DNA of 64,000 nt, from assembly GCF_009914755.1 (NCBI RefSeq), contig NC_060929.1; one strand, written 5' to 3'. The position numbers were made by a program, and so were the translations under genes. The stretch comes from the human T2T-CHM13v2.0 reference genome, Homo sapiens. The notes below the pieces were generated by a model that saw only the letters and a list, made by a program, of their open reading frames with translations, did not search any database and was not told where the DNA came from. Shown one piece after another: positions 11,490 to 56,420 of this stretch; the first letter of the stretch is position 1, and every line of letters begins with the position of its first letter.

Positions 11490-12020
11490 TTATAGACAAG
11501 AAAATTTATCCATTTTAAGTGCTCATCTCCCTGAATTTGGGCACACATATACAGTTGTGTAATTACCACCACGATTAACATATGGAATATTTTTTTCACC
11601 TCCAAAAGTTTACTTAGGGCCGGGCATGGTGGCTCACACCTGTAATCCCAGCACTTTGGGAGGCTGAGGTGGATGGATCACGAGGTCAGGAGATCGAGAC
11701 CATCCTGCCTAACACGGTGAAACCCCGTCTCTACTGAAAATACAAAAAATCACCCAGGCGCAGTGGCGGGTGCCTGTAGTCCCAGCTACTTAGGAGGCTG
11801 AGGCAGGAGAATGGCGTAAACCTGGGAGGCGGAGTTTGCAGTGAGCCGAGATCGCGCCACTGCCCTCCAGCCTGGGCGATAGAGCCAGACTCCGTCTCAA
11901 AAAAAAAAAAAAAAAAGTTTACTTAGGCCCCTTTGTGGTCATTCCTTCCCTAACTCCAGCTCTAAGCAACCTCTGATCTGACTTTTGTCACTTTAGTTAG
12001 AATTTCATATAAATGGAATT
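11490..12020 (-). mobile_element. L1M 3' fragment interrupted by AluY (+, 11618-11912)
   Basis: AluY with a clean TSD aaaagtttacttag(g). Flanks are continuous antisense L1MB/ME-like sequence. Confidence 0.85.
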
Positions 12021-12293: not shown

Positions 12294-12635
<342 letters not shown>

Positions 12636-44140: not shown

Positions 44141-44720
44141 TTGCATGAGTTCTTTGAAGAAGCATTTAAGCCATTTGTTTTGGTAGTTACAGTTAAGAGA
44201 TTGCCGAGTGTTTCTGCATTAAAATATCACATCCTTATAACTCCCATCTGCCCTTGCTCAAAACATTAGTGAAGGATGAAATATGCTTTGAAAAATTAAA
44301 ATGCCATAGCTTTTCATAAAAATAGGAGAAAAATGAAAATCTTGTCAGTCTAAAAGTGTAGTAAAAACATTTCTGCTATGCGAAACCTGAAGTTCCAGGT
44401 CTGTAAACTCTGCAGCAGGCAGAGTCAGCTGCGAGTTTGAAACTATGGGACAGAATCACTGAGAAGCATTCTAAGAATGGCTTGGGATCACAGTCACACT
44501 CAGAGAACTTGAACTGGGAACTATGTTGAGGTCGTCCTGGAGCAACATGCATGTGGCAGCTTATCTGTAGTGGTTGAGAAATCAGTGAAAATAATAAAGA
44601 GATATACCTGTGTGGAGAGGCTCAATGACTATATCGGCAATATCTGCAACATCACCATGGAGTGGGGGTGGGGAGTTGGAATTTGATCTGCCAGTCAAAG
44701 AGCTGGTTCTGGTCTGGGAT

Positions 44721-45161
44721 TCTTGAGGGTCCAGATAAATATACAGAATTGGAGGGAAATCTTCCCACTCTAGACGAGCCTGAAAACTGAGATTCTAAGA
44801 CACCAGATTACCAGAAAGACATCAGAAATGCAAACAATTAGGAAATAAATTTTTCTCAATGAAATGCACATCATAAATTTTAATTTGCATTTAAAGTGCA
44901 AATCATAAATTTTAATTTGCATTTAAAGTGCAAATCATAAATTTTAATTTGCATTTAAAGTGCAAATCATAAATTTTAATTTGCATTTAAAGTGCAAATC
45001 ATAAATTTTAATTTGCATTTCACTGAGAAAAATTTATTTCCTAATTGTTTGTATTTCTGATGTCTTTCTGGTAATCTGGTGTTTTAGAATCTCAGTTTTC
45101 AGGCTCATCTAGAGTGGGAAGATTTCCCTCCAATTCTATATATCTATCTGGCCCCTCAAGA
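44721..45161. repeat. Long inverted repeat: 148-bp arms (44721-44868 / 45014-45161), 7 mismatches, 145-nt loop
   Basis: Manual reverse-complement alignment, ungapped, 141/148 identical. Confidence 0.95.
44865..45020. repeat. 32-bp minisatellite (tgcaaatcataaattttaatttgcatttaaag) x 4.9
   Basis: Units start at 44865, 44897, 44929, 44961 and 44993; one substitution in unit 1. Confidence 0.96.
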
Positions 45162-45341
45162 TGAGATATAATTTAAAAAGTACATTTGGGACTCATAAAG
45201 ATATGGAAATAGCATCCATGAAAAGGACAAGAAATTATAAAACAAAAACAGGTAGCTGTGAATAAAGGACAGGTAGATACGAAAATGATTCTACCAGAAG
45301 CCATGAAAATAAAAAATTTGCTATTAAAATAAAAATAACTT

Positions 45342-46352
45342 GGGAGGTTCCAAGATGGCCGAATAGGAACAGCTGCAGTCTACAGCTCCCAGGGTGAGCG
45401 ACGCAGAAGACAGGTGATTTCTGCATTTCCAACTGAGGTACCAGGTTCATCTCACTGGGGCTTGTCAGACAGTGGGTGCAGCCCATGGAGCGTGAGCAGA
45501 AGCAGGGCAGGGCATCACCTCACCCGGGAAGTGCAAGGGGTCGGGGAATTCCCTTTCCTAGCCAAGGGAAGCCCTGCCAGATGGTACCTGGAAAATTGGG
45601 ACACTCCCAACCTAACACTGCGCTTTTCCAATGGTCTTAGCAAACAGCACACCAGGAGATTATATCCCACGCCTGGCTCGGAGGGTCCCATGCCCACGGA
45701 GCCTCGCTCACTGCTAGCACAGCAGCCTGAGATTGGACTGCAAGGCAGCAGTGAGGCTGGGGTAGGGGTGTCTGCCATTGCTGAGGCTTGAGTAGGTAAA
45801 CAAAGTAGCTGGGAAGCTCTAACTGGGTGGAGCCCACCGCAGCCCAAGGAGGCCTGTCTGCCTCTGTAGACTCCACCTCTGAGGGCAGGGCATAGCTGAA
45901 CAAAAGGCAGCAGAAACTTCTGCAGACTTAAACATCCCTGTCTGACAGCTTTGAAGAGAGTAGTGGTTCTCCCAGCACACAGTTTGAGATCTGAGACAGA
46001 CAGACTGCCTCCTCAAGTGGGTCCCTGACCCCCGAGTAGCCCAATTGGGAGACATCTCCCAGTAGGGGCTGACTGACACCTCATACGGCCGGGTGCCCCT
46101 CTGAGATGAAGCTTCCACAGGAAGGATCAGGCAGCAACATTTACCGTTCTGCAATATTTGCTGTTCTGCAGCCTCCGCTGGTGATACACAGGCAAACAGG
46201 GTCTGGAGTGAACCTCCAGCAAACTCCAACATACCTGCAGCTGAGGGTCCTGACTGTTAGAAGGAAAACTAACAAACAGAAAGGACACCCACACCAAAAC
46301 CCCATCTGCACGTCACCATCATCAAAGACCAAAGGTAGATAAAACCACAAAG
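45342..46352 (+). promoter_or_regulatory. L1 5'UTR internal sense and antisense promoter; YY1 motif at 45351-45361
   Basis: caagatggccg intact. The 129-bp segment absent from L1PA2/L1HS is retained (46096-46224). Confidence 0.8.
45515..45778 (-). CDS. L1 ORF0-like antisense ORF, 87 aa, open
   Basis: MADTPTPASLLPCSPISGCCASSERGSVGMGPSEPGVGY... aligns with ORF0 (MAGAPPPASLPPCSLISDCCASNQRDSVGVGPSEPGVGY). Start context gcaATGG. Translation is not demonstrated. Confidence 0.6.
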   Translation of the reverse strand: MADTPTPASLLPCSPISGCCASSERGSVGMGPSEPGVGYNLLVCCLLRPLEKRSVRLGVSQFSRYHLAGLPLARKGNSPTPCTSRVR

Positions 46353-47373
46353 ATGGGGAGAAACAAGAGCAGAAAAGCTGAAAATTATAAAAATCAGAGC
46401 ACTTCTCCTCCAAAGGAATGCAGCTCCTTGCCAGCAATGGAGCAAAGCTGGACAGAGAATGACTTTGATGAGTTGAGAGAAGAAGGCTTCAGACGACTGG
46501 TAATAACAAACTTCTCCGAGCTAAAGGAGGATGTTTGAACCCAACACAAAGAAGCTAAAAACCTTGAAAAAAGATTAGATGAATGGCTAACTAGAATAAA
46601 CAATGTAGAGAAGACCTTAAATGACCTGATGGAGCTGAAAACCGTGGCACGAGAACTATGTGAGGAATGCACAGGCTTCAGTAGCCAATTCGATCAAGTG
46701 GAAGAAAGGGTATCAGTGATTGAAGATCAAATAAATGAAATGAAGTGAGAAGAGAAGTTTAGAGAAAAAAAGAGTAAAAAGAAACAAACAAAGCCTTCAA
46801 GAAATATGGGACTATGTGAAACAAAATCTACGTCTGATTGGTGTACCTGAAAGTGATGGGGAGAATGGAACCAAGTTGGAAAACACTCTTCAGGGTATTA
46901 TCCAGGAGAACTTCCCCAATCTAGCAAGGCAGGCCAACATTCAAATTCAGGAAATACAGAGAGTGCCACAAAGATACTCCTCGAGAAGAGCAACTCCAAG
47001 ACACATAATTACCAGATGCACCAAAGTTGAAATGAAGGAAAAAATATTGAGGGCAGCCAGGGAGTAAGGTCAGGTTACCCACAAAGGGAAGCCCATCAGA
47101 TTAACAGCAGATCTCTTGGCAGAAATTCCACAAGCCAGAGGACAGTGGGAGCCATTATTCAACATTCTTAAAGAAAAGAATTTTCAACCCAGAATTTCAT
47201 ATCCAGCCAAACTAAGCTTCATAACTGAAGGAGAAATAAAATCCTTTGCAGATAAGCAAATGCTGAGAGATTTTGTCACCACCAGACCTGCCTTACAAGA
47301 GCTCCTGAAGGAAGCACTAAACATGGAAAGGAACAGCCAGTACCAGCCACTGCAAAAACAGGCCAAATTGTAA
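46353..47373 (+). pseudogene. L1 ORF1, disrupted
   Basis: MGRNKSRKAEN... to ...PLQKQAKL*, broken by several stops and frameshifts. Confidence 0.92.
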
Positions 47374-47436
47374 AGACCATCAATGCCAGGAAGAAACCGC
47401 ATCAACTAAGGAGCAAAATAACCAGCTAACATCATA

Positions 47437-52071
<4,635 letters not shown>

Positions 52072-52299
52072 ACGATGAGAACACTTGGACATAGGGTGGG
52101 GAGCATTACACACCAGGGCCTGTCGTGGGGTGGGGCGAGTGGGGAGGGATAGCATTAGGAGATATACCTAATGTAAATGACAAGTTAATGGGTGCAGCAC
52201 ACCAACATGGCACATGTATACATATGTAACAAACCTGCATGTTGTGCACATGTATCCTAGAACTTAAAGTATAATTAAAACAAAATTAAAAAAAAAAAC

Positions 52300-52810
52300 A
52301 ACTTAATAGACTGGCTAAGTTTATGCTAGATACAGCTGAATAGAGAATTGGTGAATTAGAAGAAAGTCTTAGATAATTCAATACAGTGAACAGAGAGATA
52401 AAGAAATGGAAAATACGAATGTAAAGGTGTTGTTAAGGCATACAGACAGTGGATTGAAAGATTCAAACATACATCCTATGGGAGTTACAGAAAGAGAGAA
52501 TAGGGGGCATGGCAAATTAGTAATATTTGAAGAGATTGTGGCTGAGAACTCAAGCACTGAATTCAAGAAGCTAGAACCGCAGAACAAATATCCAAATAAC
52601 AGATGTAAAAAGGAATATGGAGAAGAAATTAATAACACAGAAAAACAACAACAATAATCAAGAAGTCCTACTTATTTCAGAAGACATTTTTAGAATTACC
52701 ATTTTTTAAAAAAGGCACAAATAACATTAAACATGGAGAAAATGTACCAACAAATGTTATAAAGAAAATAATTTGAAAACTTAGATGAAAAGGATAATTT
52801 AGAGGCAAAT
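52300..52810 (+). mobile_element. Ancient L1M ORF1-region remnant (host of the L1PA insertion; continues 45162-45341)
   Basis: agatacagctgaatagagaattggtgaattaga ... aatatttgaagagattgtggctgagaac (IFEEIVAEN). Confidence 0.7.
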
Positions 52811-55810: not shown

Positions 55811-55929
55811 TTAGATAATAACATTTTCTCCTTAGCCTATTCATATGGTAAGTTATATTAAAAGATTTCCTAGTATTTTACTGTATTTTGATTTTTCCAA
55901 CTTTCTGATAGGCTTATGTTTAAAAATTG

Positions 55930-56420
55930 AGTAAAAGTGATTTAAAAGGGATATACCTAAAATATAAAAAGAGAACATTAAAAATAAAGTGATAGAAGAG
56001 ACATAATAAGTAAACACTAACCAAAAGACAAAATTAGACTATGATGCCAAATGTATAATTTGGGCTAAAGAGGGCCACTATATCAATAAAATATTTAATT
56101 CATTAGAAAGTGTAGCAGGTCTAAACTTGTCCACACCCAATAATCTATATTATGCATTAAAACATGTAAAGCAAAAACTGACAGAACAAATGGAAAAAAA
56201 TGTAAAGTGCCCCATTACATTGGATTTTAAACTGGCTGTCATTAATATAAACATCAATCAAAAAAGAAAAAACAATATAGAGCATATACATCTTTCAACT
56301 TATGAACTATATAGATCTTTATACATAAAAGTAATACAACCATAGAGGTTGTAAATATTAGTAAATCCATTAATATAACTTACCATATGTATAGGCTAAG
56401 AAGAAAAACCACATGATTAT
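55930..56420 (+). mobile_element. Ancient L1M ORF2 endonuclease-region remnant
   Basis: taaagagggccactatatc ... ctaaacttgtccacacccaataat ... aaacatgtaaagcaaaaactgacagaac (KEGHY / LN...PNN / KQKLTE). Confidence 0.65.

What the first reader, a model, noticed from the sequence alone, without database searches (positions are those of the whole stretch)
44865..45020. Hairpin loop is a homogeneous 32-bp array of self-complementary units with five perfect octamer (ATTTGCAT) sites
Seen: 4.9 copies of tgcaaat-cataaatttta-atttgca-tttaaag. Each unit is itself a 7-bp-stem mini inverted repeat, so these are hairpins nested in the large hairpin. There are 5 perfect ATTTGCAT, each preceded by TA to give TAATTTGCAT, plus 4 opposed one-mismatch GTGCAAAT. 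The units are almost identical, so the expansion is younger than the arm duplication. Established: ATTTGCAT is the POU octamer bound by OCT1/OCT4 and the neural POU3F factors. Inference: the ancestral tip was a single unit (about an 11-nt loop), slippage at the tip amplified it, and the result is a possibly copy-number-variable homotypic POU cluster about 320 bp from an L1 promoter.
Basis: partly seen in the sequence, partly recalled or inferred. Interest (0 to 1): 0.72.

Follow-up and report, generated by a model that had tools for sequence, protein, structure and literature searches.

The report
Hairpin-tip repeat in RASGRF2 intron
A 32-base DNA repeat with four copies in one human reference genome and five in another sits at the centre of a long fold-back sequence in a RASGRF2 intron; it likely arose from a copying error at the hairpin tip, and its five transcription-factor motifs are likely a passive by-product, since two published catalogues list no regulatory signal there.

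Summary
The array is real: 32 bp x 4.9, 99% matches, with five perfect ATTTGCAT octamers, between unique 151-bp inverted arms that are 95% identical. It is already catalogued as a VNTR (hg38 chr5:81,028,231-81,028,357): four units in hg38, five here, and a mean of 150.6 bp across 17 long-read assemblies. Those catalogues show no ENCODE TF or DNase cluster and no GTEx eQTL; short reads map poorly here, which weakens the ENCODE negative. The junction argues against simple slippage for the first copy. Each added unit begins with the reverse complement of the right arm's first 10 bases plus one G, not with a copy of the left arm. That fits a '4-before-1' template switch or a cruciform nick-and-fill, with slippage later. 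Octamer clusters are not special: 37 T2T loci have three or more, against 21 for a scrambled motif. The array pairs into the stem rather than forming a loop, so the likelier molecular activity is a long intronic RNA duplex (83 bp unbroken). Ape state could not be found. Verdict: an ordinary, likely neutral VNTR with an instructive origin.

The parts
44721..44871 (+). Left arm of a unique-sequence inverted duplication (151 bp, 36% GC)
   Evidence: 143 of 151 identical to the reverse complement of the right arm; only these two places match in T2T
44861..45020 (+). 32-bp VNTR, five unit-lengths in this assembly (TRF core 44865-45020), 19% GC; four units in hg38
   Evidence: catalogue rows
44872..44882 (+). 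11-nt tip segment of the hairpin (first of five copies, all in the same orientation, at 44872+32k)
44883..44903 (+). Unit junction (first of four): first 10 nt of the right arm followed by their reverse complement with one extra G; signature of a fold-back or break-and-fill event
44883..45018 (-). Five perfect POU octamers at 32-bp spacing (ATGCAAAT on the minus strand, followed by TA)
45011..45161 (+). Right arm of the inverted duplication; with the left arm it forms an 83-bp unbroken duplex (44776-44858 paired) in the sense transcript
45162..45341 (+). Decayed dispersed-repeat sequence continuing beyond the L1 at about 52300; resembles an old L1 ORF1 (resemblance recalled, only weakly tested)
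   Evidence: 70-86% matches elsewhere in T2T; tblastx to the neighbouring L1 ORF1 region E=0.027 only
45342..52298 (+). Full-length primate L1 with a CpG-depleted 5' UTR and a second, 5'-truncated L1 inserted at about 50810-51627

Best explanation
This is a polymorphic 32-bp minisatellite at the centre of a 441-bp inverted duplication in a RASGRF2 intron, which likely began when a template switch or a cruciform break duplicated exactly the hairpin tip, then likely grew by slippage, and which is likely neutral, its octamers being carried along passively. Steps: (1) shown: a single-locus inverted duplication with 151-bp arms. (2) Inferred: polymerase left the template 10 nt into the right arm, copied those 10 nt back on the opposite strand, and re-entered at the homologous end of the left arm ('4 before 1'), or staggered cuts at the base of a 10-bp cruciform were filled in. 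Either gives tip + 10 nt + reverse complement, with one G gained at the junction. (3) Inferred: with two copies present, slippage or unequal exchange gave whole-unit alleles. (4) Shown from catalogues: 4-unit and 5-unit alleles exist. (5) Inferred: no regulatory effect; the one octamer of the original right arm was multiplied.
For: Junction: removing one G from the 11 nt after the right-arm decamer gives its exact reverse complement, whereas a direct copy of the left arm would need 3 changes in 11 nt. Internal units carry the right-arm base A where the left arm has C. Direct microhomology is at most 1, 2 and 3 nt for 28-, 31- and 32-nt duplications. Walker et al. 2021 describe '4 precedes 1' events that look like one insertion made of direct and inverted repeats (PMC7954356 passages). 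[quoted passage not shown] Polymorphism; mean and SD fit only whole-unit alleles averaged per genome (6 mixes). Neutrality: TFBS no, DNase no, CpG island no; eqtl False and RASGRF2 absent from all 11 files searched; 37 loci with three or more octamers against 21 for a scrambled 8-mer; 10 of 35 other octamer loci examined have chains of five or more.
Against: One junction only, and the extra G is unexplained. No ape or other outgroup sequence was available, so the one-unit ancestor and the order of events are reconstructed. The C/A difference could instead be a later left-arm mutation. The locus was not found in the supplements of the two template-switch papers. Neutrality rests on negatives weakened by mappability (only 22-43% of 36-50-nt reads touching the octamers are unique) and on bulk adult tissue eQTL tests with read-depth genotypes.
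Confidence: 0.65

Rival explanations
1. Copy-number-tuned POU enhancer: five octamers bind OCT1 or POU3F factors and modulate RASGRF2 or the L1 antisense promoter in a cell type not well sampled.
For: Five perfect octamers with a TA flank, the only such 10-mers in the window; copy number varies; short-read assays are partly blind here. A precedent of similar layout exists: the IgH hs1.2 enhancer is polymorphic, binds octamer proteins and sits at a palindrome centre (PMC4000994 passages).
Against: No overlap with ENCODE3 TFBS clusters (25% of the genome) or DNase clusters (15%); eqtl False; no RefSeq functional element here (hub table); no Sox-Oct, MORE or PORE-like arrangement (motifs recalled); 30% GC with one CpG; comparable clusters arise for a scrambled motif.
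Confidence: 0.1
2. The element acts at the RNA level: the arms form a long duplex in RASGRF2 pre-mRNA that ADAR would edit, and each unit lengthens the stem, with possible small effects on splicing or dsRNA sensing.
For: RNA fold -284 kcal/mol, z=-32; 83 bp unbroken; four A-C mismatches in the sense strand; each unit adds about 8 kcal/mol in the DNA fold.
Against: No editing data seen; a search for RASGRF2 + editing + ADAR listed 11 papers, none on this by title or abstract start. The site is 14.5 kb from the next exon. Editing would depend on the arms, little on unit number. Editing here is compatible with neutrality. Rfam hits are all far below gathering scores.
Confidence: 0.12
3. Plain direct duplication of 32 nt by slippage or end joining, unrelated to the hairpin, with two or three later substitutions fixed before further expansion.
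For: The 11-nt tip keeps its orientation in every unit; the junction differs from the right-arm complement by only two transitions if read as 11 nt without a gap.
Against: It needs 2-3 changes within 11 nt in a region with 5.3% arm divergence, has at most 3 nt microhomology, and leaves the symmetry of the junction about the hairpin axis to coincidence.
Confidence: 0.13

Closest known systems
Catalogued human minisatellite VNTR (VNTRseek TRid 183012428; danbing-tk locus chr5:81028229-81028357)
   Same: Same locus: period 32, intronic, and the listed informative 21-mer occurs four times in this array; the unit core occurs as an array only here.
   Different: The catalogue rows say nothing of the flanking inverted arms, the junction or the octamers.
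Short-range template switch, four-point model, '4 before 1' type (Walker et al. 2021, PMC7954356; Monttinen et al. 2023, PMC10710096)
   Same: An insertion made of a local reverse-complement copy plus a direct repeat, in AT-rich DNA at a pre-existing hairpin.
   Different: Here the product went on to expand into a multi-copy VNTR; one G is unexplained; no outgroup polarisation.
PATRRs (palindromic AT-rich repeats; PMC7999016 passages)
   Same: Several hundred bp, intronic, AT-rich centre that could nucleate a cruciform.
   Different: 70% AT overall rather than over 90%; arms 95% identical with an imperfect 139-nt centre; no known translocation.
IgH 3' regulatory region hs1.2 enhancer (PMC4000994 passages)
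   Same: Polymorphic element with octamer sites at the centre of a palindrome.
   Different: hs1.2 is DNase-hypersensitive, conserved in position, binds several factors and lies in a palindrome of whole enhancer regions; this site has no listed DNase or TFBS cluster.

Membership tests
Minisatellite VNTR | Tandem units of 7 bp or more | tested here: met
   Period 32, 99% matches
Minisatellite VNTR | Copy number varies between people | tested here: met
   3.97 copies in hg38 against 4.9 in T2T; assemblies 150.6 +/- 12.3 bp, n=17
Template-switch product (4 before 1) | Inserted sequence contains a reverse-complement copy of adjacent DNA plus a direct repeat | tested here: met
   10-nt exact reverse complement after removing one G; tip repeated directly
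Template-switch product (4 before 1) | Ancestral state from outgroups and a significant pair-HMM score | not testable with these tools
   No ape genomes held; no row in the supplements searched; unreadable
PATRR | Over 90% AT, near-perfect palindrome | tested here: not met
   70% AT overall, 81% in the array; 88% complementarity over 220 nt
MITE or DNA-transposon palindrome | Dispersed copies and a target-site duplication | tested here: not met
   Only the two arms match in T2T (the search may skip very common words); no duplication visible at the outer ends
POU homotypic enhancer | Consensus octamer sites | tested here: met
   Five perfect sites; the octamer-POU link is established knowledge, recalled
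POU homotypic enhancer | Sox-Oct composite or POU dimer arrangement | tested here: not met
   0 matches in 44600-45340 to four recalled consensus patterns
POU homotypic enhancer | Open chromatin or TF ChIP signal | tested here: inconclusive
   ENCODE3 TFBS no, DNase no, but poor short-read mappability
POU homotypic enhancer | Expression depends on copy number | tested here: inconclusive
   eqtl False in GTEx with 812 genomes; bulk adult tissue, one lead VNTR per gene, approximate genotypes
miRNA precursor or known structured RNA | Rfam match at gathering score | tested here: not met
   9 hits at E<=1, best 37.7 bits against 144
ADAR substrate | Long duplex in the sense transcript | tested here: met
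   Predicted only: 83 bp unbroken
ADAR substrate | Observed A-to-I editing | not testable with these tools
   No RNA data held

The most novel reading that the evidence does not exclude
One template switch at a hairpin tip created, in the human or ape lineage, a common 4-versus-5-unit octamer array that titrates POU3F or OCT1 binding in developing neurons and tunes RASGRF2, and it has been missed because short reads cannot be placed inside a repeat nested in a palindrome. More broadly, duplication of hairpin tips would be a recurring way in which human minisatellites are born: 3 of 15 other homogeneous arrays examined have hairpin units.
Probability: 0.07. Interest if true: 0.65.

Novelty: new member of a known kind. 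Interest (0 to 1): 0.2.

Why it matters
As it stands it is a clear, datable example of how a minisatellite can be born: the junction still records a fold-back event at a hairpin tip, and ape alleles could test that in an afternoon. It also illustrates a blind spot, since repeats nested in palindromes are poorly seen by short-read chromatin assays. If unit number changed POU binding and RASGRF2 expression in neurons, it would be a common functional variant in a synaptic signalling gene (role recalled) that SNP-based studies may tag badly; nothing seen here indicates that.

Tried and rejected
Transposon origin of the hairpin: only the two arms match in T2T. Known RNA family: no Rfam match near gathering score. 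Unit as a dispersed motif: 5 matches here and one 2-mismatch site on C23. Octamer enrichment: 82 matches in 37 clusters (clusters counted by eye, one a C24 copy of a C23 locus) against 78 in 21 for a scrambled motif; same order of magnitude, although the octamer count is higher. The reversed-pattern control (52 matches) contains CpG and was not relied on. PATRR membership fails on AT content. Unit hairpin as something special: p=0.11; 3 of the 15 other homogeneous arrays pass p<=0.05, from 43 loci examined, 27 dropped for lacking a homogeneous array. Ape state: no row in the supplements of PMC13308034, PMC10710096 or PMC7954356; PMC3215961 lists the gene symbol only; the PMC12058530 file was an unreadable scan; PMC12124357 covers only 1-6 bp motifs; two older ape-comparison papers were not held. 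Locus-specific literature: searches RASGRF2+VNTR, RASGRF2+tandem repeat+human-specific, RASGRF2+editing+ADAR and VNTR+octamer+Oct-1+copy number+reporter (0 papers) listed nothing on this element; only listings and abstract starts were seen. Identification of the flanks as old L1 ORF1 stayed weak.

Full report
Observation. The array is as described: 44865-45020, period 32, 4.9 copies, 99% matches, with five perfect ATTTGCAT at 32-bp spacing and four GTGCAAAT. It lies between arms 44721-44871 and 45011-45161 that match at 143 of 151 positions without gaps. The arms occur only here in T2T, and the 25-nt unit core matches five times here and once, with two mismatches, elsewhere. The predicted fold does not leave the array as a loop: it pairs with itself and continues the stem, in DNA (-183.5 kcal/mol, z=-32) and in RNA (-284.1). 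A 7-bp stem within the unit is not significant alone (p=0.11).

It is a catalogued VNTR. The VNTRseek supplement (PMC8096271; I saw one row, and passages; the file was cut when stored) lists chr5:81028231-81028357 in hg38, period 32, 3.97 copies, intronic, TFBS no, DNase no, CpG island no, in the 'private' list with count 7. The danbing-tk supplement (PMC8275641; two rows; passages; three files too large to read) lists chr5:81028229-81028357, reference 128 bp, assemblies 150.6 +/- 12.3 bp (n=17), Vst 0.036-0.044, eqtl False. I reached these rows through a recalled hg38 position; the identity is confirmed by the period and by the listed 21-mer, which occurs four times in this array. The mean and SD fit no haplotype-level mix and six genome-level mixes of whole-unit alleles; the simplest is three 4/4, four 4/5 and ten 5/5 genomes. 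The 5-unit allele is therefore likely the common one. The 'private' label probably reflects that 150-bp reads cannot span 160 bp; that is my inference, and taken at face value the two catalogues disagree on frequency.

How it arose. In register, five copies of an 11-nt tip are separated by four identical 21-nt junctions. Each junction is the first 10 nt of the right arm followed by 11 nt that become their exact reverse complement when one G is removed. A direct copy of the left arm would differ at 3 of 11 positions, and the best direct microhomology for any placement is 1-3 nt. The added segment thus ends symmetrically about the hairpin axis and carries the right-arm base at the one position where the arms differ. 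This is the pattern of a '4 before 1' template switch, which Walker et al. describe as a single insertion made of direct and inverted repeats (PMC7954356, passages). Staggered cuts at a 10-bp cruciform with fill-in would give the same product (my inference). Once two copies existed, slippage or unequal exchange is the ordinary route to 4 and 5 (established knowledge). Limits: one junction, an unexplained G, and no outgroup. Arm divergence is 5.3% (95% interval 2.3-10.2%), roughly 10-50 million years at a recalled rate near 1e-9 per site per year, and a minimum if the arms homogenise. Four identical units have a probability of about 0.03 if they were as old as the arms, but that dates the last turnover, not the first copy.

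The POU question. The motif is real, and all five TA-flanked octamers of the window are in the array. But they are one site copied. Three octamers within 23-53 bp steps give 82 matches in 37 clusters in T2T, and a scrambled motif of the same composition gives 78 in 21. Of 36 octamer loci examined, 11 including this one have chains of five or more, up to ten in a 100% homogeneous array. By inspection of the coordinates, this is the only one of the 36 with long unique arms abutting the array; 11 others had some enclosing inverted match, within the array itself or between distant repeats. No Sox-Oct, MORE, PORE-like or TAATGARAT pattern is present (patterns recalled). The ENCODE3 clusters used in the VNTRseek annotation cover 25% (TFBS) and 15% (DNase) of the genome and miss this array. 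Against my reading: only 22-43% of 36-50-nt reads touching the octamers are unique, and 73-82% at 100 nt, so old ChIP and DNase data could miss a peak; the GTEx test used read-depth genotypes, bulk adult tissues and one lead VNTR per gene, and the row does not show that this locus was tested against RASGRF2, although intronic loci fall within the stated 100-kb rule. The neighbouring L1 5' UTR is CpG-depleted (observed/expected 0.24) and its frames are broken, so it is likely an old, methylated copy.

RNA level. RASGRF2 is transcribed on the + strand (hub table), so the arms would form a duplex with 83 unbroken pairs and four A-C mismatches, a likely ADAR substrate by established knowledge. This depends on the arms more than on unit number, lies 14.5 kb from the next exon, and was not checked against RNA data. 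No Rfam family matches at gathering score.

Comparison with known kinds. It is a VNTR by both defining tests. It works like a template-switch product, with membership unproven for lack of outgroups; such stems are numerous (31,007 in genic regions, PMC10710096 passage). It is not a PATRR (70% AT against over 90%; PMC7999016 passages). Ten literature searches (listings and abstract starts only) showed no paper on this element; subscription papers on human-specific repeats were not held, and unread supplements may give its ape state.

Verdict. Observation confirmed; interpretation partly supported. A known VNTR whose anatomy as a duplicated hairpin tip seems undescribed in what I could search. 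Likely neutral (0.65 for the full mechanism), RNA-level effect 0.12, plain duplication 0.13, POU enhancer 0.10. Interest 0.2.

Noticed in passing
window 45342-52298: L1 inside an L1: a 5'-truncated younger copy (about 50810-51627) sits in the 3' end of ORF2 of the full-length element, with a short duplicated target beginning AAGTCAGGA; the two 3' ends are 88.7% identical, and the 150-bp overlap keeps the frame, giving an 893-codon stop-free stretch at 48727-51406 across the junction.
   Followed up: partly
window 45162-45341 and 52300-52760: Decayed dispersed-repeat sequence on both sides of the L1 (70-86% matches elsewhere), resembling an older L1 ORF1 split by the insertion; the hairpin's right arm runs directly into it.
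   Followed up: partly
window 55824-55878 and 56353-56407: A second unique inverted repeat in the same intron: 55-nt arms, 89% complementary, 474-nt spacer, no other copy of the arms in T2T.
   Followed up: partly
L048 1010-1282 (G000:C8:122569409-122569681): A 26-bp x 10.5 array, 100% homogeneous, with ten perfect octamers and strongly self-complementary units (11-bp stem, p=0.005); a denser octamer cluster than the one studied.
   Followed up: partly
L073 750-947 (G000:C13:61631949-61632146): A 26-bp x 7.6 array, 100% homogeneous, whose unit is a hairpin (8-bp stem, p=0.02) and whose flanks continue a short stem; possibly another duplicated hairpin tip.
   Followed up: partly
L021 (G000:C3:200831350-200834457): A 50-bp minisatellite of at least 62 copies near the end of C3 carrying the octamer in many units.
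   Followed up: no
window 11745-11915 and 12337-12507: Inverted pair of probable Alu elements, 171 nt at 80%, 421 nt apart; another potential intronic RNA duplex.
   Followed up: no
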